From NCBI GenBank assembly GCA_009914755.4, contig CP086569.2, forward strand, positions 8,672,001-8,736,000: DNA of 64,000 bases, in the 5' to 3' direction. Origin of the DNA: the human T2T-CHM13v2.0 reference genome, Homo sapiens. The notes below the pieces were generated by a model, which saw nothing but the letters and a program-made list of their open reading frames with translations, did not search any database and was not told the DNA's origin. Of this stretch, positions 9,001 to 42,777 are shown in pieces. Numbering within the stretch: the first letter of the stretch is position 1; the number at the start of each line of letters is the position of its first letter. The position numbers and the translations under genes were made by a program.

Positions 9001-12000
9001 ACGTTGGAGTACCCCCACCTGAACACCAAGCCAAGATGTGGACTGCTTGTGTAATTAAGGGAATGCAGGGTTGGAGTTGGAAGCACTTTCTGTGTCATCT
9101 GTCTTCATTTTTTTTTTTTTGCAGGTGAAGTTGCAGGACCCAATCTTCCCCTCAGCGGTCGTATCCTCACCCCTGTCTAACATTATTGCTACTTATACTC
9201 TATTTCCCAGGGTGAAATCCCAAGATGATTGAGGAGTGCCCCCTCACAACTTGAAGCAACTGCTCAACTGGGAACTGAATGCTAGGTAAATTCAAGGGGC
9301 TCTACAGGCAGGACTGCTAATGTCTCTCCCTGGGTTGGCCGCTGGACAGTGAAACACTGGGAAATGTCTGTTTGTGTGTGTGGGCGGGGGGGTATGCTCT
9401 TCTTTCTAGAGGAGTGGCTTTTTTTGTTTCAGGTGGAGGTGATTTAGTGCATCTTGGCACTCCTCCTAATTCACTGTGGATTCAAGATCCACAGAAAAAC
9501 AAAGAACACTGAGCACTTCAGCCCTAGCAGAGCCACACACAGGCCACCAAAAAGTTTGGAGACTCAAAAAAAAGAAACACTGAAGTGCATTATCCACATT
9601 ACTTTAAGCTGATTCCACTTACAGGCACACACACATGCACACACAAACACACAATGACACACACACATGCAGGCATCTAACACTCACAAAACTCCCACAG
9701 AAACACACAGCCCAGCAGCTCCTGAGGCTGCATGGTTCCACAGGAAGCCACATCCGGGAGAGAGCAACCCCAAGGAACACAGGTGGGCTGTACCTACATA
9801 ACACAGCGGGAGAAGGTTCAAAAAGACTCACCCCTACATCGTCTAGCAGACCTGAGCAATCCTGCAGAGATTTTTGGATCCTCACAGATTTCACAGTTTA
9901 TTTCTGGGGCTGTGCTTGATGTTTCTTCAGGCTGGCTCACTTCTGTCCCCTCCTAGCATCATGGGAATATCCCTTGCATCCCACAGAGAAGATAGGTGAG
10001 AGTCCACCACCTATGCAACCTCATGGAGGTCTCCTTCTCTGTTAAGCTGCAGGGACATGTCACTATGCAATGGTGACATTCATTGTGGCACTAGCCAGAG
10101 CTCACAATCAGGCCTGGTGACCTGAGACTAGCATATGCACATTCCTGAGGCAGGCAAGCAGAGGAAAATGGTGTAGGCCAAGCTGGCATGATGTCAGGAA
10201 AAAGGCTCCCTGTAAAAACCCATTGTAGGACCCTAGAAATCTCCACCTCAGGGCCCCTTCAGGTTGTATACATGGACGGGTCCCACTGAAGGAGGAGGCA
10301 TTCTGAGACTGTGAGGTAGTCACTGGAAACTGCTTTTCTGACTCCATGCCCAAAAGAGGCTGTGTGCAAGAATCGAATCCCATGGGGATTGGGACATAGT
10401 CTTGTGTGTCGTTAAGTGTTCTTTAGGTGCTAGAATCATACCTGAGATCCCAGAGGTGGGTGTCAGCGAAAGATGGCCAGGCTCATGACCTCACTTTCTC
10501 CCTTCATCCTGGGACTCGCAGGGCTATCCAGGAAAGGCAGGAACCATGACAAAGGAAAGTCCACGGTGAAGCAGTGTTCTCACACCTTGGATTGGCCTCT
10601 CACAGGTTCAGTTGAGGTTCAGACAGTGTCTCAGAGGCCGTCTGTGGTGATGGGGATGTCCAGTAGTGCTGTTGAGGGGCACAGTGGATTCCCCATGAAA
10701 GCAAAGAAAAATCAAAGCTCATCTGAGAGAACAAGACACCTTGTATTTGAGTCCAAGCAATGTACAAAAATTCCTGTCAGAGGACCCTAGAGCCTCCTGC
10801 AAAGTGCAAACAACCTCAACCCCCATAACAAGAGAACGACTCCCAACCTGGAGCACAGCCAGCTTACCTGAAGTCTCTTTTGCTGTCTGAAATCCATGGC
10901 AGCTACATAATGTGTAGCAATAAACAGTCCCGTCCTGCAACATCCCAATGAAAGAGCCCCTTCACAATGAGAAACCTGTGCTGATGAAATGAAAGAGAGA
11001 CTAGATTACCAGGAGAAAGCCAAACACAGCTGCCTGCATCTCTTAATAAAGTAATCATCCAGCCCTCCGAAAAATGTGGGAGAACAAGACTTTCCTTGTT
11101 GGCAGCTGAAATGGGACTTTACAGTATTAAAAGTATCAAAGCTGCCCAGTCATTAAAATGTGACAGTGTTTAGAAGGAAACACTTTTGCAATGGATTCCT
11201 ATGAGGGTCATTCTCTGTGAACTGGGAAAAGTTTAGTGGGCAAGTCCTTGAACCAGACACAGGAAACCCTAGGCTGACTGGGAACATGGAAGTCAGGAAA
11301 AGAAGAGGCAAGTGTGGAAGCCACATGACACCCAGCATCAATCCATTCCAATCTCATTTGGCTCTGGGTATGAAAGCCCTCAAATCGTAAGTCTGCCAGG
11401 TTGGCCCCAATTTGCACTCCAAATGTTTCTTGCACATTGGAGTACTCTCACATGAACACTGGGCCATGGTGTGGACTGCTTGTGCAGTTAAGGGAATGCA
11501 AGGATGGAGTTGGAAGTGCCTTCTTTGTTACCTGTCTTCATTTTTCTGCAGGTGAAGTTGTGGGACTCCATCTACCCCTCACAAGATTTTACCCTCACTC
11601 CTATCTGACTTTATTGCTGCTCAAACTCTATGTCCCAGAATGAAATCCCAAGACAATGGAAGAGTGCCCCTTCATGTGAAACACCTGCTCACCTGGGAAC
11701 TGAATTCCAGGTAATTTCAAAGGGCACTGTGGACAGGACTGTTAATGTCTTTCCCAGGGTTGGCCACAGGAAAATGAAACACTGGGAGATGCCTGTTTTT
11801 TTGGTGTGGTGTGCTCCTCCTCTTTCTAGGAGGGTGGCTTTTTTCTCAGGGGGAGATGATTTGGATGCCAGCGGGTGTCGGCCAGCTTCCCACTTCACTG
11901 TGGATTAATGATCCATAGAAAAATAAAGAACACAGAGCCCCACAGCCAAAGCAGAGCCACAACCACAGGCCAACAAAAGGTTGGGAGACTCAAAAAAAAG

Positions 12001-13250
12001 AAGCGCTGAAGTCTGTTAGCCACATTCCTTTAAGCCTACTCCACTTACAGGCACATTCCCCCCTGCCCTTCCCACACACACACACAATGCCACACACACA
12101 CACACTCAGACATGACCACTCCCAACACTCTTACAGAAACATACAGCCAGCAGCTCCTGAGGCTGCATAGTTCTGCAGGAAGACCTACCAGGGAGAGAGC
12201 AACCCCCATTAAAACAGGCATGCTGTACCTAGAAATCGCACTGTGGCTAGTTTCAAAAAGACTCCCCCCCTACAAAGTCTAGGCAGGCCTGAGGAATCCT
12301 GTAGATCCTTTTGGCTCCTTAGGAATTTCGTGGTTTATTCCTGGGGCTGTTCTTGACATTTCTTCAGGCTGGCTCATGTCTGCCCTCTCCTGCGATCATG
12401 GGACTATCCTGTGGATTCCACAGATAAGACACGCAAGAGTCCACCACCGATGCACCTCCACGGAGGTCTCCTTCTCTGTCAAGATGCAGAGACTTGTCAC
12501 TACGCAACGCTGACGTTCATTTTGACGCTAGCCAGAACTCACCATCAGGCCTCCTGCCCTGAGACTAGCGCATGTGCATTCATTAGGCAGGTCCAGGGAG
12601 CCCGACTGTCAGAGCTGTAAGAGCTGAAGAAGAAGATGGTTCAGGCAGAGGCAGCCTGTTACAGGGGAAAAGGCTGACTGCGAAAACCCATTGCGGGACC
12701 CTAAAAGTCTCGAACTCAGGCCCATTTGGGTCGTCTACATGGTCTGGACCTGCTGCGGGAGGAGGCATTTCAAGACTGTGAGGTGGTCGCTGGAAACTAC
12801 TTTTCTGACTCCATTCTGGAAAGAGGCTATGTACAAGAATCCGGCCCCACTGGGATTGGAATATACTCTGGTGTGTTGTTGCAGAGGTGATAGAATCATA
12901 CCTTAGGTGATAGAATCATACCTGAGACCCCAGAGGCGGGTGTCCGCGAACGACGGCCGGCTCTTGCCCTCACTGCCTCCCTTCGTCATGGGACTCGCAG
13001 GGACTCTCTAGGAAAGACAACAACGACGGCAAAGGCAAGTCCAATGTGGAGCCGTGTTCTCTCACTTTGGACTCGCCTCCCACTGGTGCAGATGAGGTTG
13101 AGACAGTGTCTTAGAGGCCGTCAATGGCGATGGCAAGCCTGGAAAGGGTGTCCAGTAGTGCTGCTGAGGGGCCCTGTGGATTCCCCAATGAAAGCAAAGA
13201 AAAATCAAAGCTCGCCTGAGAGAACTAGTTGCCTTTTCCTAAAGTCCAAG
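1..13250. repeat. Macrosatellite-like tandem array. The unit is about 2.44-2.52 kb with about 5.35 copies. Unit starts are near 1, 2517, 4990, 7468, 9948 and 12386; the last unit is partial (about 865 bp).
   Basis: The motif ctctcctaggatcatgg...cccacagagaagacaggcgagagtcc recurs at a spacing of 2437-2516 bp. Long stretches between units are collinear at roughly 75-80% identity. Each unit carries small internal poly-T, (AC)n and (GAA)n tracts at homologous positions whose length varies between copies. No ORF is conserved between units. Confidence 0.9.
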
Positions 13251-13467
13251 CTCTGCCTCCCGGGTTCACGGCATTCTCCTGCCTCAGCTTCCCGAGTAGC
13301 TGGGACTACAGGTGCGTCCAACCACGCCCAGCTATTTTTTTGTATTTTTAGTAGAGACAGGGTTTCACCGTGTTAGCCAGGATGGTCTAGATCTCCTGAC
13401 CTCGTGATCCACCCACCTTGGCCTCCCAAAGTGCTGGGATTATAGGCATAAGGCACTGCACTCAGCC
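13247..13467 (-). mobile_element. Alu SINE fragment: the 5' three-quarters of the Alu, lacking the 3' end and A-tail. It abuts the end of the tandem array.
   Basis: Reverse-complement Alu consensus, ...ctccgcctcccgggttcacgccattctcctgcctcagcctcccgagtagctgggactacagg...gcctcccaaagtgctgggattataggca. Confidence 0.9.
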
Positions 13468-27107: not shown

Positions 27108-27835
27108 TGTGAGAGGTGAAGCCACCTGGACTTCCTGGGTCGAGTGGGGACTTACAGAAGTTTTCTGTCTAGCTAAAGGATTGTACATGCACCAATCAGC
27201 ACTCTGTGTGTAGGTGAAAGTTTGCAAATGCCCCAACCAGCACTCTGTAAACAGGCACCAATCAGTGCTCTGTGTCTAGCTAAAGGTTTGTAAACACAAC
27301 AATCAGCACTCTGTAAAACAGACCACCAGCACTTTATAAAATGGACGAATCAGCAGAACGTGGGTGGGAACAAACAAAACAATAAAATCTGGCCACCCCA
27401 GCCAGCAACAGCCACCTGCTTGGGTCACTTTCCACTCCGTGAGAGCTTCATTCTTTTGTTCTTCATAATAAGTCTTGCTGCTGCTCACTCTTTGGGTCTG
27501 CACTAACTTTGTGAGCTGTAACACTCACCACGAGGGTCTGTGGCTTCATTCCTGAAGTCAGCAAGACAGCAAACCCACCAGGAGGAACAAAGAACTCTGG
27601 ACATGCCACCTTTAAGAGCTGTAAAACTCACTGCCCAGGTCTGCGGCTTCACTTATAAAGTCAGCAAGACCAAAAACCTACCAGAAGGAAGAAACTCCAG
27701 GCACATCTGAACATCTAAAGGAACAAACTCCGGACACACCATCTTTAGAACTGTAATACTCACTGCGAGGGTCCATGGCTTCATTCTCGTAGTCAGTGAA
27801 ACCAAGAACTCACCAGAAGCAACCAATTCTGGACA
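27108..27835 (+). mobile_element. ERV9 5' LTR (LTR12 family).
   Basis: The hallmark LTR12 reiterated motif caccaatcagcactctgt occurs in several copies together with gctgtaacactcac/gagggtc.gtggcttcattc blocks. A matching partner lies at 33862-34527. Confidence 0.85.
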
Positions 27836-29113
27836 TACTTTGTTGATCCCGATGGGACACTCACCAAGCGGTGAATACCATCGGACCCCTTTCACTTGCT
27901 ATTCTGTCCTATTTTTCCTTAGAATTCAGAGACTAAATACTGGGCACCTGTTGAACTGTTAAAAGTGACTAGCATGGCCACCAGACTAAAGACGTGAGTG
28001 TCAGGCTTTCTGGGAAAAGGCTCTCTAACAAACCCAGACTCTTTGGAGTTGGGAGTGTTGGTTTGCCTGGAACCAACTTCTGCTCTTCCTGTACTTCTGG
28101 GATGAGCCAGGGGTCAACAGAAAGGAAAGCCATTCAGTTCTGGGGTCCCAACAAGTTGGTGGACCCAGTGGCCATGAGCAGAACTCTCAAAGTCATGTCG
28201 CCCAAGCGAGACTCGCCCATCTATCCTATCTATCCTGATGCTTGCCTCCTGGGTCCTAATGCTTGTCAAACTTCCTCTTGCCTTTCTTCTCCTAGGCTAG
28301 TCCTGCTTCTAAAAACCACTCCTTGTCACTGGTGTTTTCTAGTTTATCCTATAAGAATGATTTCTAGTATAAACTTCAGGGTGCTTTTACCTTCTTTAGC
28401 TACCCAGGCTCACCAATCAGAAAGACATAATTTTTGCCCAAAGCCCCATCAGGGGTTAGGGTTACTATCTGGAATTTTAGGATGCTTCCTTAGACTGGCA
28501 GGCCTAAAATAAGCAATTCCTGAAGCTAGGATATGAAGAGCTTCAGAAATGGTATCTTTCCTATTCATATGAAGACAAAAGGCATCACTCTTCCAACTCT
28601 TGAGATCCCTTCCCTTACTCAGGGTATGGCCCCCCACTTCATATTTGGGGCCTAACATCATTATAGGACAGTTGTAAGATCCCAATACTAACAGGAGAAT
28701 GCTTAGGACTCTACAAGGTTTTCAAGAATGTGTCAGTAGGAGCCACTAAATCCAATTTTTCTTGGTCCCCTGCACCTTTGCCACCCTAGGAGGAGAGGCA
28801 AAGTTGCAGGTTTTTCAGAATGTGTCAGTAAGGGCCACTAAATCCAACCTTTCTCAGTCCTGTTTGTGGTCTAGGAGGAAAACTAATGTTTCTGCTGCTG
28901 CATCAGTGAGTGCAACTGTTCCAATCAGCAGGGTCCAGGGACGATTGTGGGTTTCTGGGCAAGAGGTGTTTCTGCTGCTGCATCAGTGAGTCAACTATTA
29001 TGATCAGCAGGGTCCAGGGACTGTTGTGGGTTCTTGGGCAAGAGGTGTTTTTGCTGCTGCATTGGTGAGCACAACTATTCTGATCAGCAGGGTCCAGGGA
29101 CCATTGTGGGTTC

Positions 29114-29656
29114 TTGGGCAGGGGGAGAAACAGACAAACCAAAACTGCTGGTTGTTTTGTCTTTCAGATGGGAAACTCTCAGGTATCAACAGGCTCACCC
29201 TTGGAATTCATCTTAAGCCACTGGGACCAATATGACCCACAAACCCTGAAAAGCAGGAGGCTCATTTTTTTCTGCACTATGGCCTGGCCCCAATATTCTC
29301 TCTCTGATGGGGAAAAATGGCCACCTGAGGGAAGTATAAATTACAATACTATCCTGCAGCTTGACTTTTTCTGTAAGAGGGAAGGCAAATGGAGTGAAAT
29401 GCCTTATGTCCAAGCTTTCTTTTCATTGAAGGAGAATACACAACTATGCAAAGCTTGCAATTTACATCCTAGAGGAGGACCTTTCAGGTTACCTTCATAC
29501 CCAGCCTCCGCTAATCTCCCTTGCCCAGAAGGAAACAAGAAAAGAAATCTCCAAAGGACCACAAAAACCCCCAGGCTATTAGTTATGTCCCCTTCAAGCT
29601 ATAAGGGGAGGGGAATTTGGCCCAACCAGGGCACATGTCCCCTTCTCCCTCTCTGA
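29114..29656 (+). pseudogene. ERV9 gag remnant, N-terminal/matrix region (180-aa ORF).
   Basis: The ORF begins MGNSQVST. It sits in the expected position between the 5' LTR and pol, and is the longest ORF in the window. Confidence 0.6.
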
Positions 29657-30246
29657 TTTAAAGCAGATCAAGGCAAACCTGGGGAAGTTTTCAGATGATC
29701 CTGATAGGTACATAGATGTCCTACAGGGTCTAGGGCAAACCTTCAATCTCACTTGGAGAGACATCATGCTATTGTTAGATCAAACCCCGGCCTTTAATGA
29801 AAAGATTGTGGCTTTAGCTGCAGCCTGAGAGTTTGGAGATACTTGCTGTCTTAGTCAAGTAAATAATAGAATGACAGCTGAAGAAAGGCTCAAATTCCCT
29901 ACCATTCAACAAGACATTCCCTGTATGGATCCCCACTGGGAAATTGACTCAGATCATGGGGACTGGGAGTCATAAATATCTATTGACCTGTGTTCTAGAA
30001 GGACTAAGGAGAATTAGGAAGAAACCATGAGTTATTCAATGATGTCCAACTTAACTCAGGGAAAAGAAGAAAATCCTTCTGCTTTCCTTGAGCAGCTGTG
30101 GGAGGCCTTAAGAAAATATACTGCCCTGTCACCCAACTAACTCAAGGGTCAGTTGATTCTAAAAGATAAATTTATTACCCAATCAGCCACAGATATCAGG
30201 AGAAAATTCCAAAAGCAAGCCCTGGGCCCTGAACAAAATCTGGAGG

Positions 30247-30249
<3 letters not shown>

Positions 30250-30291
<42 letters not shown>

Positions 30292-30385
30292 ATTTTGAGA
30301 CAAAGTCTTTCTCTGTTGCCCAGGCTGGAGTGGAGTGCAGTGTCACCATCTTGGCTCACTGCAAGCTCTGCCATCTGGTGGCATT
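30250..30385. repeat. (TTA)n microsatellite followed by about 90 bp of truncated Alu, nested inside the ERV9 internal region.
   Basis: (tta) repeated 13 times, then gagacaaagtctttctctgttgcccaggctggagtggagtgcagtgtcaccatcttggctcactgcaagctctgcc. Confidence 0.8.
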
Positions 30386-30779
30386 ATAAAACCTGGCAAC
30401 CTCGGTATTCTGTAATAGGGACCAAGAGGAACAGGCCCAAAAGGAAAAGCGAGATCAGAGACAGGCCACAGCCTTAGTGATGGCCTCAGGCAAACAAATC
30501 TTGGTGGTTCAGAGAGGACAGAAAATGGAGCAGGCCAATCACCTGATAGGGCTTTTTACAAGTGTGGTTTATAAGGACATTTTTAAAAAGATTGTCCAAT
30601 GAGAAAAAGGCCACTCCCTCATCCATATGCACAATGCTGAGGCAATCACTAGAAGGCACACTGCCTCAGAGGGCAAAGGTTCTCTGGACCAGGAGCCCCC
30701 AACCAGATGAACCAACAACAGGACTGAGGGTGACTAGGGAAGCACCAGCTCATATCATCTCCCTCACTGAGCCCCGGGT

Positions 30780-32720
30780 ACATTTAACCATTAAGGACTA
30801 GGAAATTGACTTCCTCCTAGACACTGGTGCAGCCTTCTCAGTGTTAATCTCCTGTCACAGATGACTGTCCTCAAGGTCCATTACCATCCAAGGAATCCTG
30901 GGACAGCCTGTAACCAGGTATTTCTCCCACCACCTCAGTTGTATTTGGGAGACTTTGCTCCTTTCACATTCCTTTCTTGTTATGCCTGAAAGTCTCACAC
31001 CCTTATTAGGGAGGGATATATTAGCCAAAGCTTGAGCTATTATCTACATGAATATGGGGAACAAGTTACCCATTTGTTGTTCCCTATTTGAGGAGGGAAT
31101 CAACCCTGAAGTCTGGGTATTGGGAAGACAATTCAGAAGGGAAAAATGCCTGCCCAATCCAAATCAGTCTAAAAGACCCCACCACTTTTCCTTATCAAAG
31201 GCAATAACCCCTAAGGCCTCAAGCTCATAAAGGATTACAGGATATTGTTAAACATTTAAAAGCTCAAGGCTTAGTAAGGCAATGCAGCAGTCCTTGCAAT
31301 AGCCCAATTCTAGAAGTACAAAAACAGAACCATCAGTGGAGTCTAGTGCAAGATCATAGACTCATCAATGAGGCAGTAATTCCTGTATATCCAGTTGTAA
31401 CAAACCCCTATAACCTGCTCTCTTAAATACCAGAGGAAGCAGAATTTTTCACTGTTCTGGACCTCAAGGATGCCTTCTTCTGTATTCCCCTACACTCTGA
31501 CTCCCAGTTTCCCTTTGCCTTTGAGGATCCCACAGACCACACATTCCAACTTATGTGGATGGTCTTGCCCCAAGGGCTTAGGGATAGCCCTCACCTGTTT
31601 CACTGTGCACTGGCCCAAGATTTGGGCCAATTCTCAAGTCCAGGCAGTCTGGTCCTTCACTATGTGGATGATTTACTTTTGGCTACCAGGTTGGAAGCCT
31701 CATGCCAGTAGGCTACTCTAGATCTCTTGAACTTTCAAGCTAATCAGGGGTACAAGGTCTCTTGGTTGAAGGCCCAGGTTTGCCTGGACCAGGTCAAATA
31801 TCTAGGCTTAATCTTAGCCAGAGGGACTAGGGCCCTCAGCAAGGAATGAATACAGCCTATACTGGCTTATCCTTACCCTAAGACATTAAAACAGCTGTGG
31901 GGGTTCCTTGGAAACACCAGCTTTTGCCAACAATGGATCCATGGATACAGTGAGATGGCCAGATCATTCTATACTCTAATCAAGGACACCCAGAAAGCAA
32001 ATATTTATCTAGTAGAATGGGAACTAGGGCAGAAAGAGCCTTCAAACCCTTAAAGCAGGCCCTAGCACAAGCTCCAGATTTAAGCCTTCCCACAGGACAA
32101 AACTTCTCTTTGTACATCATAGAGAGAGCAGAGATAGCTCTTAGAGTCCTTAATCAGACTCGTGGGACAACCCCAAAACCAGTGGCATACCTAAGTAAGG
32201 AAATTGATGTAGTAGCAAAAGGCTGGCCTCACTGTTTACAGGTGGTTGTGGTGGTGACTGTCTTAGTGTCAGAGGCTATCAAAATAATACAAGGAAAGGA
32301 TCTCACTCTCTGGACTACTCATGATGTAAATGGCAGATGAGGTGCCAAAAGAAGTTTATGGTTATCAGACAATCACCTGCTTAGATACCAGGTGCTACTC
32401 CTTGAGGGAATGTTGTTTCAAATATGCATGTTTTTGGCCCTCAACCCTGCTGTTTTTCTCCCAGAGAATGGGGAACCAATCGAGCATGACTGCCAACAGA
32501 TTATAGTCCAGACTAATGCTGACCAAGATGATATCTTAGAAGTTTCCTTAGGTAATCATGACCTTAACATATTTACCAGTGGAAGTTCATTTGTGGAGAA
32601 TGGGATACAAAGGGCACGTTATGCCATAATTAGTAATGTAACCATACTAGAAAGTAAGCCTCTTCCCCCAGGGACCAGCACCCCATTGGCAGAGCTAGTG
32701 GCACTTACCTGAGCCTTAGA
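30780..32720 (+). pseudogene. ERV9 pol remnants (protease, RT, RNase H). The reading frame is broken and the integrase is largely missing.
   Basis: Protease active site LDTGAAFSVL at about 30810. RT motif LVLHYVDDLLLATR (YVDD) at about 31640-31690. A thumb/connection-like segment (PVAYLSKEIDVVAKGWPHCLQ) at 32017-32340. An RNase H-like segment (TSGSSFVENGIQRARYAIISN...GTSTPLAELVALT) at 32570-32720. Confidence 0.8.
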
Positions 32721-33249
32721 ACTTAGAAAGAGAGAAAGAATAAATATGTATACAGATAGCAAGTATGCTTATCTAATCCTACATGCCTATGCTGCAATAT
32801 AGAAAGAAAGGGAGTTCCTAACCTCTGAGGGAACCCCCATTAAATACCACAAAGAAATTATGGAGTTATTGCATGCAGTGCAAAAACCCAAGGAGGTGGC
32901 AGTCTTACACTGCTGAAGCCATCAAAAAGGGGAAGGGGGGTGGAGAGCAGCAGCCCAAGTGGCTGGCAGAGTCAGGGAAAGACCAGCAGAAAGGAAAGAG
33001 AGAAAGAGATAGAAAGTGACAGAGAGAGAGAGGAAGTGACAGAGAGAAAGAGAGAGAGAGTCAGGGAGGAAGAGACAAAGAAGGACTCAGAAAAAGAGAA
33101 AGAGGGAAACAAACAAGAAGTCAAAGAGAAAGAAAGAGATGGAAGTGCTAAAGTAAAAGCAGTGTACCCTATTCCTTTAAAAGCCAGGATAAATTTCTGT
33201 CTAACCAGCCAAGGCATATTCTTCTTATGTGGATCTTCAACCTACATCT

Positions 33250-33440
33250 GCCTCTCAGACAGTTTTCAAGAAATAACAAAATCTATCCTTACTCTACCAT
33301 CCCAAATAGACTCTGTGGCAGCAATGACTCTCCAAAACCATCAAGGCCTAGACCTCCTCACTGCTGAGAAAGGAGGACTCTGCACCTTCTTAGGGGAAGA
33401 GAGTTGTTTTTACACTAACCAGCCAGGGATAGTATGAGAC
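33250..33440 (+). pseudogene. ERV9 env transmembrane-subunit remnant (immunosuppressive-domain / CX6CC region).
   Basis: LQNHQGLDLLTAEKGGLCTFLGEESCFYTNQPGIV matches the conserved gamma-type TM motif LQNRRGLDLLTAEKGGLCxFLxEECCFY. The upstream part of the same ORF (32990-33150) is a purine-rich (GA-rich) tract giving an artefactual RE/K-rich translation. Confidence 0.8.
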
Positions 33441-34527: not shown

Positions 34528-36424
34528 AGCTTCCCACTGAGCTTACAACAAGGACCATAGAACTCAACATGGCTGCAGATCCCAAGTGGTCCTGCCTGTT
34601 GCCCTCTCCCATTTAGTCTGCTCAACTGTTTGCAGCCTCATCTGCTCCCACTTTGGGGGCTCTTGATTGTCTTGGGGATTTTGTGTGCATCCTCAATCCA
34701 TTCACCCAGTGCCCACCCTTACCTAATTTATCTAATTTCCTAGGGATTTATCCAACTGAATCCTTAAAGTCACATCAGTTGTGATATCTAACTGTAGAAA
34801 AGTTAATAATGTAATGTTTCTAAAGATAAAGAAATGATTTGTTATTTGTTAGATCATTGATGAGATCACTCTCAATTTAGAAATCAAGAAAATAATAGTA
34901 AATAAAATAAAAGCCCATGTTTGGGATAATAGGTAAAAAAAAGGCTCAGTGCTGAAGACAAATGACAAGACTGATTATTGAAATAACATAAGAATTTATT
35001 GGAGAGACTATTACCTTCCTATATTTTCCAACTGTGTGTTACTACTTACAAGATATTTTATGTTTAAATACTTATATTTTATGTAGTCCATCAATGCAGT
35101 TAACTGATGAAAAGTCCTAGCCCACATCATGATAATCTACATAAATGGTTCTAAACATCCTTAACTGTATAACCTAAAGTAATAAAGTAAGCCTAGACAT
35201 TTAAGCAGGTGAATTATTAATATTTATATATTGAAATTCTGAGAAGGAATGTAAGTATGTCACAGCTCTGGTACAGGACTTGGGACAGTTGTGTAACCAT
35301 GCACCCCATGAACTTAAGGCTCTCTCTTTTACTTCCTACTGGATGGCAAATTCTTAACCGATGGAGACTGAGGGGCAAACTGTCACCTTTATTGGAAACT
35401 CTAGTTAAGCAGAAAAGTCTTCATTTCAGAACATCCTTTCCTGTCAGGTATTTTCTTTTCTCATCCACGGAAACCTGCTACCCAGCCATATTATTACTTT
35501 GACTCAACCTCAGGTGGAGCTAGACAGGACCAATTTTACAACACAGAATCCCATAACTATGAGAAAAGCTAACATATGAAACACTTCATGGTGTAAAACT
35601 TAAATATTTTACTGTTTATCTTTTTATGTAGTTGTTTTCTCTTGCATTTATTTTTGGTGAAGTAAATAAAGTGCAAATCTTCCTTTTTGTGGCATGTCTT
35701 TTCACTTTCTTGATACCGTCTTTCAATGCAAAATATGTTTTATTTTGAGGGAATTTTTTCTTTAGTTGGCTGTATCAGATCTAAGATTTTTGTATCAGAT
35801 CTAAGTCCTAGGTTATGAAGAAGTATCCCTAAGTTTTATTCTAGAGTTTATGTTTTTACCTTTAATAGGTAGGCTTTTGAACCATTGACTGATGAGGAAA
35901 AGATACAATTTTTTTTCTGAATGTGGTTAGTTTGTTGTCTAACAGCATTTGTTGAATTTTATGGTCTTGACTGAATTACAAAATCAATTGACCATAGAGG
36001 TATAGTTGGACTTGACATTCAGTTTCATTGATCTCTATGTGTGTCCTTATGCCAATATTATGCTGTTTTTCTTACTGTTGCTTTTCAGTAATATTTGAAA
36101 TTGAGAAATGTGAGACTCCAAGTTGGTTTTTGTTTTCAAGATTATTTTCACTATTCAGGGTCACTTGAAATTTATATGAATGTTAGGACTGGCTTGCCCT
36201 TTCTGTCAAAATAACTTTGGTATTTTCATAGAAATCACAATGAATTTCTAGATTGCTTTGTGTACTATTGTCATCTTAAAAAAATTATCTTCTAATCCAG
36301 AAACATGGAATGTCTTCACATCTATTCACAGATTCTGGAATTTATTTCAGCAATATTTTGTAATTTTCCATGTCTAAGTCTTGCTCCTTGGTTAAATTTA
36401 TTCTTAAAATATTATTACTGTTGT

Positions 36425-36612
36425 TGTTTTTTTTGTTTTATTTTTTGAGACAGAGTCTTATTCTGTTGCCCAGGCAGGAACGTGGTAATGTGATCATAGC
36501 TCACTGCACCTTTGAACACTTTAGCTCAGGTGGTCCTTCCACATTGGCCTCCCAAGTTACTGGAATTACAGGTGTATATGACTACACCCAACCCATTTTT
36601 TTTTTTTTTTGC
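36425..36612 (-). mobile_element. Partial Alu with a poly-T tail at its right flank.
   Basis: gagacagagtcttattctgttgcccaggcaggaacgtggtaatgtgatcatagctcactgcacc...cctcccaagttactggaattacaggtg. Confidence 0.75.
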
Positions 36613-36894
36613 TGTTTTTAAGGATGAAAAGATGCTTTGCTTTATAATCAATGAAAACATAGTACTTTTAATTGCCCAAAAGTCATAATGCACAAGAACT
36701 CTAAGTTGTATAGTTAACTTCTGGACCATCTGGGTAAAGTTCAAGTGCTTCTTCAAAATTTGTACCTGATAATCTTCCCAAATTGTCCTTAAAGTTCTTA
36801 AATTGTAGCAGTAAAAATAATGACAAGACCAGACACATTTAAACAATACTAAAATTTTTCCAAGGACATAAGAAATTTTAACTCTTATACTGTT

Positions 36895-37160
36895 TGTTTC
36901 TGTGTTTGTTTGTTTGTTTTTTGAGACAGGGTCTCACTCTGTTCCCCAGGCTGGATGCAATGTGCCATCATGGCTCACTGCAACCTCTTACTCTACGGTT
37001 CAATTGATCCTTCTGCTTTAGACTCAGCCACCAACCTGGCCCATTTTAATTTTTTTGTAGAGAAAAGGATGTACCCTGTTGGCTGGGCTCATCTCAAATG
37101 TCTGAGCTCAACTCATCTGACAACCTTGAACTCCCAAAGTGCTGGGATTATAGGCATTGA
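36895..37160 (-). mobile_element. Old Alu (AluJ-like, diverged).
   Basis: gagacagggtctcactctgttccccaggctggatgcaatgtgccatcatggctcactgcaacc...ctcccaaagtgctgggattataggcattgac. Confidence 0.85.
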
Positions 37161-38928
37161 CAAAATGTTTATTACGTCAGGGTCAGTTAAAAAAATCTAT
37201 TTTTTGGCTAAGTTATAAATATACTTATAATGCAATTATTTGTGTAACTCCAGCAATGCTATGGGCAGCTACAAAATCAAAATAGTCTTTTAAAAAAACA
37301 CTAAAAATATCAAAACACCTAGCCCCATTATTTAGTTGTAGAAGAGGTTCATTTATGTCTAATTTTCAGCATTTTCATGTCGTTATTGCTGATTTCAAAA
37401 GCCATATCCAATGGGTAAGGCAAAAGGACCTATGAATTGAGATACTTGTTTATTTCTCAGTTTGTGAAAATCTCCTTAAATTGCTGAGATTGTAAACAAA
37501 TTTAAACTCTATTATGCAAAAAACAGAAGACAATCTTCTTTGTCATTAATTTTGCAGCTACATTGCATACAAGATATGTACTATCTATGAAAAAATACAA
37601 ACTCAACTACAGGTCTTAAACACTGAAAAGAGTTGCCAGTTGATTATAATTTATTTTGTTATATCAATCTAATGTATTTATGTACAATTCGTTGTATTTA
37701 TATAGAATCTGGAAAGTTCACAGCCATCAGCAGTTCTGCAGTTTCAGGTGAAATGGGAATTCAGGAATCTCTGTGGAACTGTGGGTGTAGTGAAATGTGT
37801 AGGTAAAATATTTGCATGCTTTTGGAAGCATTTGTGAAGGGATGTATTTCAAATTGACCTCAACTGTGTCTTTCTCAGCAAAATGATCTGGGACACTCAA
37901 CAAGGGTTTCATTGTTTCTGATGTTTGTGCACGTTCTTCTTTTTACAAGAAATTCAGGGCTCAGAAGATATCCATTTGACATCATGGCATTAGAGCTTTC
38001 ACAACCACTGTAGGTTTTCTCTTCTTCATACATTATGGTTTCAAGTAATTTTATTCTGATTTCCCGGGAGCTTGAAAGGTTTCTGTTTAGCCCCACAGGC
38101 ACTGCAGGGAGGTCCCAATATAGCAGCAAAATGGTTAATTTCTAGCGTACAGAGAAAGATTTTTTGTGTTGATATTTTGTTGTGCTACCTTGCTTAATTT
38201 GTTCACTAGATTTTATAATTTCTTGTTGGTTCCTCCTGGTTTTCTGTGTAGGAGATCTGTGAGTAGTTTTACTTCTTCTTTATACATATGAGTGGCTTTG
38301 TATATATATTTCTTTTCAAATTATTCTAGTGGAACTTTTAGTACAGTGTTGAATACAGTGATGAGAGTGAGCATCAGTGCTGTTCCTCATCTTAAAACTT
38401 TGGTTCCCAACAATTCAGATGATGATTGTTATGGGTTTTGCATAAGGACATTTTGTTATGTGAAAAAATTTGAAACACTGTTTATCGGATTTTGTTATTA
38501 TTAAAATATTTTGACTATCTTTGTGTACTTTCTGAAACAGTTGAGACAAAAGTGATGTTTTTCCATCAGTTACTTTGCATAGTATATCGAAAAGGGATGG
38601 GTTTAGAATGGTGAGAAACCCTTGACTGGCTGAAAAAAGAACTTAATAATTGTGATGTATAATGTTTTCACTATGTACCAAATTCCATGTACTCTTATTT
38701 GGTTAAATATTATGATGTCTATAATTATCAAATTTATTAACATTTAGTTTTTTTCTCCTACTGATACCATATGTTTAATTTAATACACAGTTGGGGTTAG
38801 AAAAAGATATGGTTTGGTGTAATATCATGGGTATTAGGGGTCAGAGTTTTGAGTTGTAGAGGATGTATTTAATATTTTTTGAAGCACGATGGGCAAATAT
38901 TAAGGATAGGATAGAATTTGGGGATTAA

Positions 38929-39213
38929 GCTGGGCTCGGTGGCCCATGTCTATAATCCCAGCAGTTTGGAAGGCCATGGTGGGCAGTTCAGGAGGTCAAG
39001 AGATCAAAACAATTTGGTAAACATGGTGAAACCCCGTCACTACTCAAAATACAAGAAAAAAATTAGCTGGGGTTGGTGACACGTGCCTGTATTCCCAGCT
39101 ACTCAGGAGGCTGAGGCAGGAGAATCACTTGAACCTGTGAGGCAGAGGTTGCAGTAAGCTGAGGTCATGCCACAGCACCCCAGCCTGGCAACAGAGGGAG
39201 ACTCCGTCTCAAA
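38929..39213 (+). mobile_element. Alu on the plus strand. Its A-tail has expanded into the adjacent GAA tract.
   Basis: gctgggctcggtggcccatgtctataatcccagcagtttggaaggcc...cagcctggcaacagagggagactccgtctcaaag. Confidence 0.92.
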
Positions 39214-39555
39214 GAAAAAAGAGAGAGAAGAAAGAAGAAGAAGAAGAAGAAGAAGAAGAAGAAGAAGAAGAAGAAGAAGAAGAAGAAGAAGAAGAAGAAG
39301 AAGAAGAAGAAGGAGGAGGAGGAGGAGGAGGAGGAGGAGGAGGAGAAGGAGGAGAGGAAGAGACGAAGAAGAAGAAGAAGAAGAAGAAGAAGAAGAAGAA
39401 GAAGAAGAAGAAGAAGAAGAGGAAGAGGAAGAGGAAGAAGGAGAAGGAGAAGAAGAAGAAGAAGAAGAAGAAGAAGAAGAAGAAGAAGAAGAAGAAGAAG
39501 AAGAAGAAGAGAAGAAGAAGAAGAAGAAGAAGAAGAAGAAGAAGAAGAAGAAGAA

Positions 39556-39587
<32 letters not shown>

Positions 39588-39592
39588 AAGAT
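39214..39592 (+). repeat. Long (GAA)n trinucleotide tract of about 125 triplets, with GGA/GAG interruptions in the middle.
   Basis: Uninterrupted gaagaagaa... runs are separated by (gga)n/(gag)n blocks. The Arg/Glu/Lys ORF at 39167-39604 is a translation artefact. Confidence 0.97.
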
Positions 39593-39597
39593 TTTGG

Positions 39598-42500
39598 GAA
39601 TTAGGGATGGGGTTTACAATTGCAGAACAAGGTTTAGGATTACATTGTGAGGTAGGGCTGAGGTTGGGATAGGGGTTAGTACAGTGGTAGGATTAGCTTT
39701 AGAGTTAGAGTTAGGGTCAGGGTTAGGTGTTAGGGTTAGACGTTAGAATCAGTGTTAGAAGTTAGGTTTGGGATTGGGTTATGCTTAGGGTTAAGGTAAA
39801 AATGTAGGCATACAGAAGGGTGTTAGGCATTAGGGTCATGGCCTGGATTAGGATTAGTGTTAAGCTTTATGTAGAGGGTAAGGGTTAGAGGGGTTGTGTT
39901 AGGGTTAGTGTTTGCTTAAGCTTTAGGGTTAGAATTTACCATTAGGATTACTGTTTAGGGTTACATTTAGATTTAGGTTTGGGGTTGAGGATTGGGGTTT
40001 AAGGTTAGGGTTAGCATTTATCATTTATGTTTATGGTTATGGTTAGGTGTAAGATTTACTGTTAGGAATATGGCTAGGGTTTTGGATTTAGGGCTGGCAT
40101 GACTGTTAGGGCTGGGTTAGGGTTAGGGTTAGTCGTCATGGTTAGTGTTACAGTTAGGGTTGGGTTTAGAGTTTAGGAGTAGGGTTAGGGTTTATGGTTA
40201 GGGGACAGTTAGGTGTTAGGGTTAGTGATTAGCATTTACCACTAGGGATAGCATTAAGGTATTTCTAGGGTTAGGGGCAAAGATTAAGGTTAGGTTTATG
40301 GTTTAGGGTTAGTTTGGATTAGGGTTTTGGTCTAGGTTTAGGGGTAGGTGTTGGCTTAGGGGTTAGGTTAAAGATTACAGTTTGGGTTTAGTGTTCTGTG
40401 TAAGAGTTACGGTTTGGTTTTATTGCTAGGTTTAAGATTATGTTAGGAGTATGTTAGTATTAGTGTTAAGATTAGGGGTTTTGGATCAGTATTAGTGTTA
40501 GGGTTATGGGATGTAGTTAAAGTTTTTTTCAGTGTTTTTGGGATTTTGTATTTTACAGTTAGAATTAGAGTTAGATTTAGGCATTAGAGTTAGGTTTCGG
40601 GTTAGTGTCTTAGGCTTAATCTTAGGTTTAGGATTCAGAATAATTGTTATGCTTAGGATAAGCCTTAGGTTTCGGTTTTAGGATTGTGGTTAAGTGTTTG
40701 GTTTAGTATTAGGGTTTAGGGTTAGGGTCAGGGGTTAGGATTAGTGTTGGTGTTTAGTATTAGTGTTCAGGTTGGTTTTGGGTTTTTTTGTTGTTGTCTG
40801 GCTATTGTTAGGATTGTGGATATGGGTTAAGATTTGGGCTAGTGTTGGGTCTGGTTTAAGGCTTGGGTTTAATTTTTAATATTAGGGGTAGGCGTTAGAG
40901 CTTGTTTTATGTTTAGGGTATTGTTTAGCATTAGTGTTATTATTAAGGTTAGAATATAGGCTTAAGGTCCTGTGTTTAAGGGAGGGTATGATTTAGGTTT
41001 ATAAACCGGGTTGGTGTTGGTGTAGGGGTAGGGTTAAAGTTGGGGTATCAGGGTTAGGATTTCGGTAAGGGTTATGTTTGAGGTTAGGGTTGGTGTTAGT
41101 CTTACAGTCAGGGTTAAAGTTCAGGGTTACTGTTAGAGTTGGGTTAAGGTTAGGGGTTACAGTTAGTGTTGGGTTAAGGTGTAGGGTAAGGGTTAGGATT
41201 TATGGTTGAAATTTAAGTTCAAGATTAGAGTTATGGTTCATGATGAGCATTAGAGTTTAAGATTAGTGTTAGGGATCAGCATTTGTGATAAGGTTAGTGT
41301 TAGGAACTAGTGTTATATTTAGTGTTTAGGATGAGAATTAAGAGTTACAGTCAGCCTTTATGGTTTAGGGTTAGGGTTATGGTTAGCTTTCAGGCTTTAC
41401 AGTTTGGGTCATGCCTTAGGTTTAATTTTAGGGTTAAGTTAAGAGTTAGTTTAGTTTTAGTGTTAGGGTTCAGTTTTTATGGTTTTCCAATTAGAGTTAG
41501 GGTTATTGTTAGGCTTATGTTTTGGGGTCAGGGTTATGTTTAGTGTTTTAGGGTTTTATAGTCAGAGTTTCATTTAAGGATTATGGTTTTGTTTTGGGTT
41601 AGGGTTTCAAGGTTAGGATTAGGGTTAGGCATTAGGGTTAGTATTTAGGGTAAGGGTGAGGATTAGGTTATTGGATATGGTAAATTGTAGGTTTAGGATT
41701 ATTGTTAGGGTCAGATGGTTTTGTTTAGGTCTTAAGATTAGGGTTAGTTCTAGGATTTAGGATTAGTCTCAGGGTTTAGTGTTAGGGTTAGGGCTTATTT
41801 TTAGTATTTGGGTTTTTATTGAGTTTGACGTTCCGTGTCTTAGTTTTATGGTGAGAGCCTGGGGTTAGGATTAGGTTTAAGTTTAGAATTATTGTATAAG
41901 GTCATTATTAGAGTTATGGTGGTGGCAGGGTTAGGCTTTATGGTTTTGGTTATGGTTAGTGTTTAGGTTTAGGTTAAGGGGTTAAGGTTATGTTCAATAT
42001 TATGATTACAGTTAGGGTTAGCATTATTGGTTAGGGTTAGTGTTAGGTTTATGGTTAGGGTAGATATTTGGGTAACATTAGGGTTAAAGTCACTGTTAGT
42101 GGTTAGGCTCAGGGCTAGGGTTTAATTTTAGGTTTAGGTTTAGGGTTGGTCTAAGGATTAGTACTAGAATTATGGATTGGGTTTAGGTAACAAGGTTAGG
42201 TTTGGCTTTGGGTTTGAGGTTGGTGTAGGTGTAGGTTTAGGGTAATGTTTAGGGCTAGAATTAGAGTTGTGGGGTTAGCATTAGAGGCTAGTGTTAGTCT
42301 TAGGTTAGTGTTAGTGTCAGGTTTGGGATTCAGGTTTAGTGGCTAGGGTAGAATTAAGTGTTAGGGGTTATGGTTAGTGTTAGGGGTAGGATTTTAGTGC
42401 TAGTATTAGGTTTTAAGGGAGTATTGGTAGAGATGGGTTAGTTATTGTTTTATGGTTAGGGTTAGTTTTTTGGGGTTAGGGTTTGGGTTTTATGGTTGGG

Positions 42501-42777
42501 TTTTGGGTTCAGTTCATGGTATGTTTGGGTTGCTGCTGAGTTATGGTTATTATCAGGGTCAGGGTCAGGTTCAGGTGTCAGCATTAGGATTTAGTGTTGG
42601 GATTGGGTTTTGGTTTTTGGTTTGTGTGAGGGGTTAGGCATTAAGATTAGGCATAGTGTTGATGTTGGGGTTGAGGTTGGAGTTTAGGCTTGCTGTTAGA
42701 TCTAGGGTTTTTTGGTTAGGTTTAGGGGTAGGGGTTGGGGTAAGGTTAATGTTACAGTTAGGTTTAGGGTTAGGGTA
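39598..42777 (+). repeat. About 3.2 kb of highly degenerate telomere-like hexamer array: (TTAGGG)n / GTTAGG variants with the G-rich strand on +.
   Basis: Almost cytosine-free G/T/A sequence built from the hexamers gttagg, tttagg, gtcagg, attagg and gttatg. Examples are gggttagggttagtcgtcatggttagtgttacagttagggttgggttt and ggtttagggttagggtagtcctg at the right edge. Confidence 0.85.

What the first reader, a model, noticed from the sequence alone, without database searches (positions are those of the whole stretch)
39598..42777. 3.2-kb degenerate interstitial telomere-like (TTAGGG/GTTAGG)n array directly abutting the GAA tract
More than 500 hexamers fit the telomeric pattern with the G-rich strand on +. 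They are so diverged that almost no perfect TTAGGG runs remain, and the strand is nearly C-free. An interstitial telomeric block this long is unusual. The known 2q13 fusion relic is under 1 kb, and typical subtelomeric degenerate blocks are 0.05-0.3 kb. The degree of decay implies an ancient origin from one of three routes: a healed break, an ancestral chromosome end or fusion, or a subtelomeric TAR-type block. Its orientation would place the ancestral chromosome end to the right of it. The strongly G-rich strand retains many GGG runs, so G-quadruplex potential and replication difficulty are plausible. The neighbourhood (macrosatellite, ERV9, no genes) is compatible with a subtelomeric or ancestral-fusion context.
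Basis: partly seen in the sequence, partly recalled or inferred. Interest (0 to 1): 0.8.

Follow-up and report, generated by a model that had tools for sequence, protein, structure and literature searches.

The report
Fossil telomere-repeat array on Y chromosome

Summary
Window 39598-42777 is about 514 hexamer units whose best-fitting unit, among all 5-mers and 6-mers with at most one C, is TTAGGG. It is 75% identical to that unit, period 6 dominates, and C is 5.1%.

The run of exact TTAGGG copies (3942 bp, 61 copies) matches one published row exactly: T2T-CHM13v2.0 chrY 8,710,833-8,714,775. The window is therefore Yp11.2, 8.7 Mb from the telomere, between RBMY pseudogenes.

The adjoining GAA tract is the expanded tail of an AluS that inserted into the array. 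Its target-site duplication matches at 16 of 20 bases.

The units decayed independently of each other. There is no purity gradient, no higher-order repeat and no internal duplication. Transitions at T and A positions match local neutral controls, which suggests an age of roughly 40-70 Myr (my inference). G positions carry an unexplained G>T excess. Only two canonical G-quadruplex motifs remain.

By my hand count of the same published tables, chrY holds 20 of the 31 clusters genome-wide that have at least 30 TTAGGG and lie more than 5 Mb from a chromosome end. One of them is an oppositely oriented array 119 kb away.

Verdict: a fossil interstitial telomeric array, a new member of a known kind. 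Its origin is unresolved between captured telomeric DNA and in-situ expansion.

The parts
39590..42777 (+). Main degenerate (TTAGGG)n array: about 514 units, 75% identity to the unit, G-rich strand on +.
   Evidence: TTAGGG is the best of all 5-mers and 6-mers with at most one C. Period 6 dominates. C is 5.1%.
38795..38928 (+). Probable left stub of the same array, cut off from it by the Alu insertion.
   Evidence: C is 3.7% and the stub contains GTTGGGGTTAG and TATTAGGGG. It carries the 5' copy of the Alu target-site duplication. Its hexamer order alone is not significant (z = 0.8).
38929..39214 (+). AluS-type element inserted into the array.
   Evidence: It aligns best to an AluSx consensus recalled from memory: 16.9% divergent overall and 11.7% at non-CpG sites. 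A BLAST hit covers 38929-39210.
39215..39589 (+). The Alu's A-rich tail, expanded into (GAA)n. Tandem Repeats Finder places it at 39226-39588, 121 copies, 92% matches. Pure runs are 26, 18, 20 and 22 copies.
   Evidence: The tract starts directly after the Alu 3' end (...GACTCCGTCTCAAAGAAAAAAGAGAGAGAAGAAAGAAGAA).
38910..38929 (+). 5' copy of the Alu target-site duplication, GATAGAATTTGGGGATTAAG.
   Evidence: It matches 39586-39605 at 16 of 20 bases. No other 20-mer of the array matches it at more than 14 of 20.
39586..39605 (+). 3' copy of the Alu target-site duplication, GAAAGATTTTGGGAATTAGG.
35560..38790 (-). Old L1 on the minus strand, interrupted by two Alus and other sequence. Its 5'-truncated end abuts the array stub.
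   Evidence: tblastn with an ORF2 protein recalled from memory hits 36407-36288 (aa 210-250) and 36117-36022 (aa 310-341) on the minus strand. My own reading of 38160-38760 is that it is the antisense of the reverse-transcriptase region. A Pfam scan gave no hit, so this part is weakly supported.

Best explanation
This is a fossil interstitial telomeric array in the male-specific part of the human Y chromosome (Yp11.2, T2T-CHM13v2.0 chrY about 8.711-8.715 Mb). It has no evident present function. The sequence records a history in five steps.

1. A nearly pure (TTAGGG)n tract of at least 3.3 kb came to lie inside the Y. I favour capture of telomerase-made telomeric DNA, either by insertion at a break or by a rearrangement that internalised a telomere. 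After that the block may have been copied together with Y amplicons. This step is inferred.
2. Homogenisation stopped and every unit decayed on its own. The result today is 75% identity, no gradient and no higher-order structure. This step is shown.
3. G positions decayed fastest, with an abnormal excess of G>T and A>T changes. The pattern is shown. Its cause is unknown.
4. An AluS inserted about 135 bp from the left edge, and its poly(A) tail grew into a (GAA)121 tract. This step is shown.
5. An old L1 lies against the left edge. This step is weakly shown.

Transitions at T and A positions run at the same level as in neighbouring neutral DNA. From that I infer that the array stopped being homogenised roughly 40-70 Myr ago.

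It is not subtelomeric, and in this window it is not a head-to-head fusion point.
For: Location:
- The run of exact TTAGGG in the window spans 38834-42775: 3942 bp, 61 copies, 3576 bp of loops.
- One row of the FuzzyClusTeR supplementary table is identical: NC_060948.1 8710833-8714775, 3942, 61, 3576.
- The implied window start is 8,672,000, a multiple of 32,000.
- Flanking RBMY pseudogenes lie at 8.56 and 8.92 Mb.

Telomere unit: TTAGGG is the best of all 5-mers and 6-mers with at most one C. The alignment score lies 72 SD above shuffles.

One-time origin followed by independent decay:
- Identity does not change along the array (regression p = 0.65).
- No unit lag from 1 to 299 stands out.
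- Internal BLAST hits stay at the 64-66% baseline.
- Derived states shared between units exceed permutation only at lag 1 (z = 3).

Age:
- T>C is 5.6% and A>G 6.8% in the array.
- The controls give 5.6% and 4.2% in the neighbouring 2.48-kb macrosatellite, and 3.1% and 4.1% in 12 local Alus.
- The AluS inside the array is 11-12% divergent at non-CpG sites, which sets a minimum age.

The Alu inserted into the array: the target-site duplication matches at 16 of 20 bases, against a maximum of 14 of 20 for 3152 other array 20-mers.

Family on the Y: the tables list 9 G-rich and 11 C-rich chrY clusters with at least 30 hexamers more than 5 Mb from the ends. Many form mirror-image pairs of identical size, which I read as the two arms of Y palindromes.
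Against: - The mode of origin is not shown. Nothing here separates captured telomerase-made DNA from in-situ expansion of a short seed.
- I could not read the other Y arrays, the X chromosome or any ape orthologue. Common descent of the Y arrays and the age estimate are therefore both untested.
- The G>T and A>T excess shows that decay was not simply neutral. That weakens any clock. If all sites are used, the divergence (Jukes-Cantor distance about 0.30) would suggest a far older age.
- The Alu and L1 consensus sequences were recalled from memory.
- The stub to the left of the Alu is array-like in composition only.
Confidence: 0.65

Rival explanations
1. The hexamer satellite grew in place. 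A short TTAGGG seed expanded by slippage or unequal sister-chromatid exchange in the non-recombining Y, as telomere-like repeats do on the sex chromosomes of other vertebrates, and then decayed. Telomerase and chromosome ends were never involved.
For: - chrY is strongly enriched for such clusters: 20 of about 31 that lie more than 5 Mb from an end.
- The neighbouring 2.48-kb macrosatellite shows a similar level of decay (72-75% pairwise identity; 11.4% from its consensus). That suggests tandem arrays formed in this region at about the same time.
- There is a slight excess of shared variants between adjacent units (z = 3), and Tandem Repeats Finder reports local 30-32-bp periods.
Against: - Arrays built by repeated unequal exchange usually keep variant blocks or higher-order repeats. 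None is seen at any lag, and internal matches stay at baseline.
- That pattern implies the tract was nearly pure when turnover stopped.
- Human ITS in the T2T catalogue reach only 1840 bp.
Confidence: 0.25
2. One reading: the block is a relic of an ancestral chromosome end, a healed break or a telomere-telomere fusion. The array marks the old terminus, which would lie to its right.
For: - A length of 3-4 kb fits a shortened real telomere.
- The tract was once nearly pure.
- A second array of 58 CCCTAA in 5569 bp lies 119 kb downstream in the opposite orientation (chrY 8,833,647-8,839,216). The pair therefore has the convergent polarity of a head-to-head fusion.
Against: - The two arrays are 119 kb apart, not abutting.
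- The window holds no CCCTAA array. I saw no subtelomeric-type repeat beside the array.
- The site is 8.7 Mb from the Yp end.
- Comparable arrays occur in both orientations on what look like palindrome arms elsewhere on the Y. Duplication explains inverted pairs more simply.
- chrX shows no comparably dense cluster outside the pseudoautosomal regions.
Confidence: 0.08
3. The block is subtelomeric (TAR1-type or a degenerate subtelomeric ITS) and was carried to Yp11.2 by a segmental duplication.
For: Subtelomeric ITS are degenerate. The Y took up many duplications from other chromosomes (established knowledge).
Against: - No other repeat typical of subtelomeres adjoins the block. The flanks are an L1, an Alu and single-copy sequence.
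- It has 5% C and only 10 CpG, whereas TAR1 is GC- and CpG-rich as far as I remember.
Confidence: 0.02

Closest known systems
Head-to-head fusion ITS at human 2q13/2q14 (chr2:114,027,333-114,028,210 in T2T-CHM13)
   Same: An interstitial, degenerate TTAGGG array left over from true telomeric DNA.
   Different: - The 2q site is two abutting arrays in opposite orientation, 878 bp in total. From memory, it is flanked by subtelomeric duplicons.
- This block has a single orientation and is 3.2-3.9 kb.
- Its nearest opposite-strand array is 119 kb away.
'Diffuse' telomeric-repeat clusters catalogued in T2T-CHM13v2.0 (FuzzyClusTeR preprint, doi 10.64898/2026.03.19.712643)
   Same: The array is literally one row of that catalogue: NC_060948.1 8710833-8714775, 61 repeats. 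The authors suggest that such clusters may be remnants of highly mutated ITS.
   Different: In the sections I read, the preprint does not describe this locus, its anatomy or the concentration of such clusters on chrY.
Large heterochromatic ITS, and telomere-like repeat accumulation on sex chromosomes of other vertebrates (from memory: Meyne 1990; Ruiz-Herrera 2008; Rovatsos 2015)
   Same: Telomere-type repeats far from chromosome ends, enriched on a non-recombining sex chromosome.
   Different: Those blocks are defined cytogenetically, span tens to hundreds of kb and are usually homogeneous. This one is 3 kb, decayed and no longer turning over.
Short ITS inserted at double-strand breaks (Nergadze et al. 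2004, 2007, cited)
   Same: An interstitial TTAGGG tract in one orientation within ordinary sequence.
   Different: The T2T catalogue of all ITS spans 16-1840 bp, and from memory short ITS are usually near-exact. This block has 514 units at 75% identity.
Alu poly(A)-tail-derived (GAA)n repeats, such as the FXN intron 1 GAA repeat (from memory)
   Same: The GAA tract starts at the 3' end of an Alu and lies inside its target-site duplication.
   Different: This concerns only the neighbouring tract, not the telomere-like array. At 121 copies with interruptions, it is long for a reference-genome allele.

Membership tests
Interstitial telomeric sequence (ITS), general | Tandem repeats whose consensus is the vertebrate telomere hexamer TTAGGG. 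| tested here: met
   TTAGGG is the best unit among all 5-mers and 6-mers with at most one C. The per-position majority is T, T, A, G, G, G at 88, 88, 82, 72, 65 and 56%.
Interstitial telomeric sequence (ITS), general | Located away from the chromosome end. | tested here: met
   chrY 8.71 Mb of 62.46 Mb.
Short ITS | A few to a few tens of nearly exact hexamers. | tested here: not met
   514 units at 75% identity.
Subtelomeric ITS / TAR1-type block | Lies within the subtelomeric domain, next to subtelomeric duplicons. | tested here: not met
   The site is 8.7 Mb from the Yp end. The flanks are an L1, an Alu and single-copy DNA.
Subtelomeric ITS / TAR1-type block | Sequence match to the TAR1 consensus. 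| not testable with these tools
   No Dfam or Repbase library is available. Composition (5% C, 10 CpG) argues against it.
Fusion ITS (2q13 type) | Two arrays abutting head to head, (TTAGGG)n(CCCTAA)n. | tested here: not met
   No CCCTAA-type block exists anywhere in the window. The nearest one is 119 kb away.
Fusion ITS (2q13 type) | A synteny break or an ancestral chromosome end at the orthologous site in related species. | not testable with these tools
   No primate genomes are available here.
Heterochromatic ITS / telomere-like satellite | A large homogeneous block with ongoing turnover (higher-order repeats, shared variants). | tested here: not met
   No higher-order repeat and no internal duplication. 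Neighbouring units are nearly independent.
Alu-tail-derived GAA repeat (the adjoining tract) | Directly 3' of an Alu and enclosed by the Alu's target-site duplication. | tested here: met
Functional shelterin-binding ITS | TRF1/TRF2 occupancy. | not testable with these tools
   Sequence only: 29 YTAGGGTTR half-sites, five perfect dimers and no trimer.

The most novel reading that the evidence does not exclude
The human male-specific Y carries a family of old multi-kb telomere-repeat arrays. By size and copy count, the published tables suggest at least 11 distinct arrays in 20 copies. That is about two-thirds of all TTAGGG-dense clusters in the genome that lie more than 5 Mb from a chromosome end. 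This block is one of them, and it forms a convergent pair with a second array 119 kb away.

The most novel reading not excluded is this. The arrays are dated footprints, roughly 40-70 Myr old, of repeated telomere capture, chromosome healing or fusion-bridge events, or of a burst of telomeric-satellite growth, that accompanied the building of the ampliconic Y. Their shared G>T-biased decay would then be a mutational signature specific to old G-rich telomeric DNA.
Probability: 0.15. Interest if true: 0.65.

Novelty: new member of a known kind. Interest (0 to 1): 0.35.

Why it matters
The block itself looks like inert fossil DNA. It matters in three modest ways.

- **Length.** It is longer than any locus in a recent human ITS catalogue, so the usual statement that human ITS are short depends on how much decay a search tolerates.
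- **Enrichment on the Y.** It led to a chromosome-level pattern that the papers I could search do not describe. Most TTAGGG-dense clusters lying far from chromosome ends are on the male-specific Y, often as mirror-image pairs that look like palindrome arms. If these arrays share an origin, they could serve as datable markers for how and when the Y amplicons were assembled.
- **Decay pattern.** The array decayed with a G>T and A>T excess that two neutral controls in the same window do not show. That is a testable hint of mutagenesis specific to G-runs in old telomeric DNA.

The long (GAA)121 tract and the G-rich block could also affect replication or assembly locally. The canonical G-quadruplex content is low, however.

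Tried and rejected
- **Other telomere-like blocks in the window.** None was found on either strand. The 20-bp minisatellite at 26159-26696, which I suspected might be an inverted telomere-like array, does not score.
- **Higher-order structure, purity gradient and internal duplications.** None was found.
- **Alternative units.** 12-mers such as TTAGGGTTAGTG and 7-mers such as TTTAGGG fit worse than TTAGGG.
- **Flank comparison within the window.** The two flanks have no other copy in the window. I judged the L1 fragments at about 35.6-38.8 kb and about 45.5-45.7 kb not to be collinear, so the array is not an insertion inside one L1.
- **Pfam scan of the L1-like flank translations.** No hits. 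L1 identity therefore rests on tblastn with an ORF2 protein recalled from memory.
- **Metagenome scan for the right-flank 30-mer**, hoping for contaminating primate or human contigs. It returned 0 hits. I did not use the second scan.
- **Literature searches** for a description of telomere-like arrays on the human Y, and the ape sex-chromosome paper. Nothing relevant turned up.
- **T2T-Y sequence-class table.** It was cut off in the stored supplement, so I could not confirm whether 8.7 Mb is classed as ampliconic or X-degenerate.
- **TTY2/TTTY tandem family** as the identity of the 2.48-kb macrosatellite. This was a lead from memory that I could not check.
- **SST1** as the identity of that macrosatellite. 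This was considered from the literature but not tested against any sequence.
Full report
**What is there**

Window 39598-42777 is a T- and G-rich block with only 5.1% C (T 1273, G 1063, A 681, C 163). Base autocorrelation peaks at lag 6 (0.52). The later peaks drift to 12/13, 19 and 25, which indicates a mean period near 6.2 caused by single-base indels. Tandem Repeats Finder reports only short local stretches with periods of 6, 12, 13, 19, 25 and 30-32, all with low match percentages.

Wrap-around alignment to TTAGGG gives 514 unit equivalents. Identity is 75% over aligned bases, or 71% with gaps counted, and there are 134 insertions and 38 deletions. The score is 1594, against -1162 +/- 38 for shuffles.

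I scored every 5-mer and 6-mer with at most one C as a candidate unit. TTAGGG came first (1594), ahead of TTTAGG (1247). The 7-mers and 12-mers I tried fit worse.

Forty-nine aligned units are perfect. There are five perfect dimers and no trimer. No other stretch of the window scores as telomere-like on either strand.

**Where it is**

Exact TTAGGG strings spaced less than 3660 bp apart run from 38834 to 42775. That is 3942 bp, 61 copies and 3576 bp of loops.

A 2026 preprint lists all such clusters in T2T-CHM13v2.0. One row is identical in all three numbers: NC_060948.1 (chrY) 8,710,833-8,714,775. The implied window start is 8,672,000, a multiple of 32,000, and the strand agrees. I take the location as settled.

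The T2T-Y gene tables place RBMY2MP at 8.56 Mb and RBMY1A3P at 8.92 Mb. The window is therefore in Yp11.2 in the male-specific region, 8.7 Mb from the Yp end of a 62.46-Mb chromosome. It is not subtelomeric.

**The GAA tract**

An AluS-type element lies at 38929-39214. It is 16.9% divergent from an AluSx consensus that I recalled from memory, and 11.7% divergent at non-CpG sites. Its A-rich tail runs straight into the (GAA)121 tract. The pure GAA runs are 26, 18, 20 and 22 copies long.

The 20 bases before the Alu match the 20 bases after the GAA tract at 16 of 20 positions. None of 3152 other array 20-mers matches better than 14 of 20. This is a target-site duplication, so the Alu inserted into sequence that already existed there. 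The 134 bp to its left (38795-38928) have 3.7% C and are probably the array's left end, although their hexamer order alone is not significant.

The Alu also gives the array a minimum age.

**Left and right flanks**

Left of the stub lies an old L1 on the minus strand. tblastn with a recalled ORF2 protein hits 36407-36022. My reading of 38160-38760 is that it is the antisense of the reverse-transcriptase region. Pfam gave no support. The L1's 5'-truncated end meets the array.

No array sequence reappears beyond the L1. The right flank has no other copy in the window.

**How it decayed**

- Identity to TTAGGG does not change along the array (eight blocks at 0.72-0.77; regression p = 0.65).
- No unit lag from 1 to 299 stands out.
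- Internal BLAST matches stay at the 64-66% baseline.
- Derived states shared between units exceed permutation only for adjacent units (z = 3).

The tract must therefore have been nearly pure when homogenisation stopped, and every unit then decayed independently. A true telomere edge would be expected to show a gradient from degenerate to pure. An actively exchanging satellite would be expected to show variant blocks. Neither is present.

**Mutation spectrum and age**

| Change | Array | Macrosatellite control, five 2.48-kb units vs their consensus | Alu control, 12 Alus |
|---|---|---|---|
| T>C | 5.6% | 5.6% | 3.1% |
| A>G | 6.8% | 4.2% | 4.1% |
| G>A | 13.0% | 7.5% | 8.5% |
| G>T | 18.0% | 3.8% | 4.6% |
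| A>T | 9.6% | 2.7% | 3.7% |

Transitions at T and A positions are about 1 to 1.8 times the local neutral level. On that basis I infer that the array is of roughly the same age as the local Alus and the macrosatellite's last homogenisation, or somewhat older, about 40-70 Myr. This is an inference, not a measurement.

G positions are different. G>T outnumbers G>A by 275 to 199, against 114 to 223 in the macrosatellite (Fisher p = 1e-11) and 30 to 55 in the Alus (p = 1e-4). A>T is also in excess (p = 0.004).

The TTA positions are 82-88% conserved and the GGG positions 56-72%. From memory, the variant repeats at the base of living human telomeres show the opposite pattern. I have no tested explanation for the drift toward T. 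It means that whole-array divergence overstates the age.

**G-quadruplex and shelterin potential**

The block has 137 GGG runs but only two canonical motifs (G3+, loops 1-7) and six with loops up to 12. Shuffles give 0.5 canonical motifs on average. There are 29 YTAGGGTTR half-sites. The potential is higher than in the rest of the window but very far below that of a live telomere.

**Context on the Y**

I hand-counted the published tables for clusters with at least 30 TTAGGG that lie more than 5 Mb from either chromosome end. The autosomes plus X have 11, including the 2q fusion site and 22q11. chrY has 20.

Many chrY rows are mirror-image pairs of identical size, for example 18,370,882 (G-rich) and 19,342,179 (C-rich), both 5959 bp with 62 copies. 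I read these as the two arms of Y palindromes. The sizes suggest at least 11 distinct arrays.

One C-rich array of 58 copies in 5569 bp lies only 119 kb downstream of this block (8,833,647-8,839,216). The pair is convergent. chrX has nothing comparable outside the pseudoautosomal regions.

A separate T2T ITS catalogue reports 522 loci of 16-1840 bp. As a single locus this block would exceed all of them. I found no paper that describes the Y enrichment.

**Interpretation**

The best-supported account is a fossil interstitial telomeric array. A nearly pure TTAGGG tract of at least 3.3 kb became internal on the Y, stopped being homogenised, and has decayed since. An AluS pierced it along the way.

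I lean toward capture of telomerase-made DNA, because the tract was pure and several kb long and shows no trace of stepwise growth. In-situ expansion in the non-recombining Y remains a serious rival. The reading as an ancestral chromosome end or fusion point is not excluded, but it has no positive support beyond polarity and the distant convergent partner. The subtelomeric reading is refuted by location.

**Neighbourhood**

- A macrosatellite of 2.48-kb units, 72-75% identical to each other, at 1-13251.
- An internally deleted gamma-type ERV with gag MA and env hits at 29.1 and 33.0 kb and LTR12-like 66-bp repeats at 27.2 kb.
- Twelve Alus.
- Several L1 fragments.
- No ORF outside the ERV matched a protein family.

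Noticed in passing
T2T-CHM13v2.0 chrY, outside the window (8.83, 18.37-19.70 and 22.5-26.8 Mb): In the published cluster tables, chrY holds 20 of about 31 clusters with at least 30 TTAGGG that lie more than 5 Mb from a chromosome end. Many are equal-sized mirror pairs that look like palindrome arms. One oppositely oriented array (58 copies in 5569 bp) lies 119 kb downstream of this block. I found no paper describing this.
   Followed up: partly
window 39598-42777: The decay spectrum is abnormal. G>T (275) outnumbers G>A (199) and A>T is in excess, while two local neutral controls show the usual 2:1 excess of transitions. The TTA positions are far better conserved than the GGG positions. The cause is unknown.
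   Followed up: partly
window 1-13251: An old macrosatellite with more than five units of about 2.48 kb, only 72-75% identical to each other. It runs off the left end of the window and ends at an Alu. No ORF in it matches Pfam. Its identity is not established (SST1-like? TTTY-type?).
   Followed up: partly
window 39226-39588: A (GAA)121 tract, 92% pure, with GGA and GAG interruptions and pure runs of 26, 18, 20 and 22 copies. It derives from an AluS tail. It is long enough that triplex formation or length polymorphism is plausible.
   Followed up: partly
window 26159-26696: A minisatellite based on a 20-bp unit (consensus AACACCCATAATACTGATGT, with 40-, 60-, 100- and 120-bp higher periods). 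It is A- and C-rich on the + strand and lies just upstream of the ERV LTR. It is not telomere-like.
   Followed up: no
window about 27185-33437: An ERV on the + strand with 66-bp LTR12-like U3 repeats at 27185-27317 and an 80-bp x 2.9 tandem repeat at 28887-29120. A gag MA hit lies at 29114-29656 and an env hit at 32940-33437. Only about 4 kb separates gag from env, so pol is largely deleted.
   Followed up: partly
window 16975-17545: An AT-rich (TA)n and 22-24-bp minisatellite block with self-complementary arms (17266-17368 and 17370-17472). GC is 25% in this kilobase.
   Followed up: no
window 17102-17161 and 23740-23799: A (CA)n/(TA)n tract and its reverse complement 6.6 kb apart (85-89% complementary over 60-66 nt). 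This is probably a chance pairing of simple repeats.
   Followed up: no
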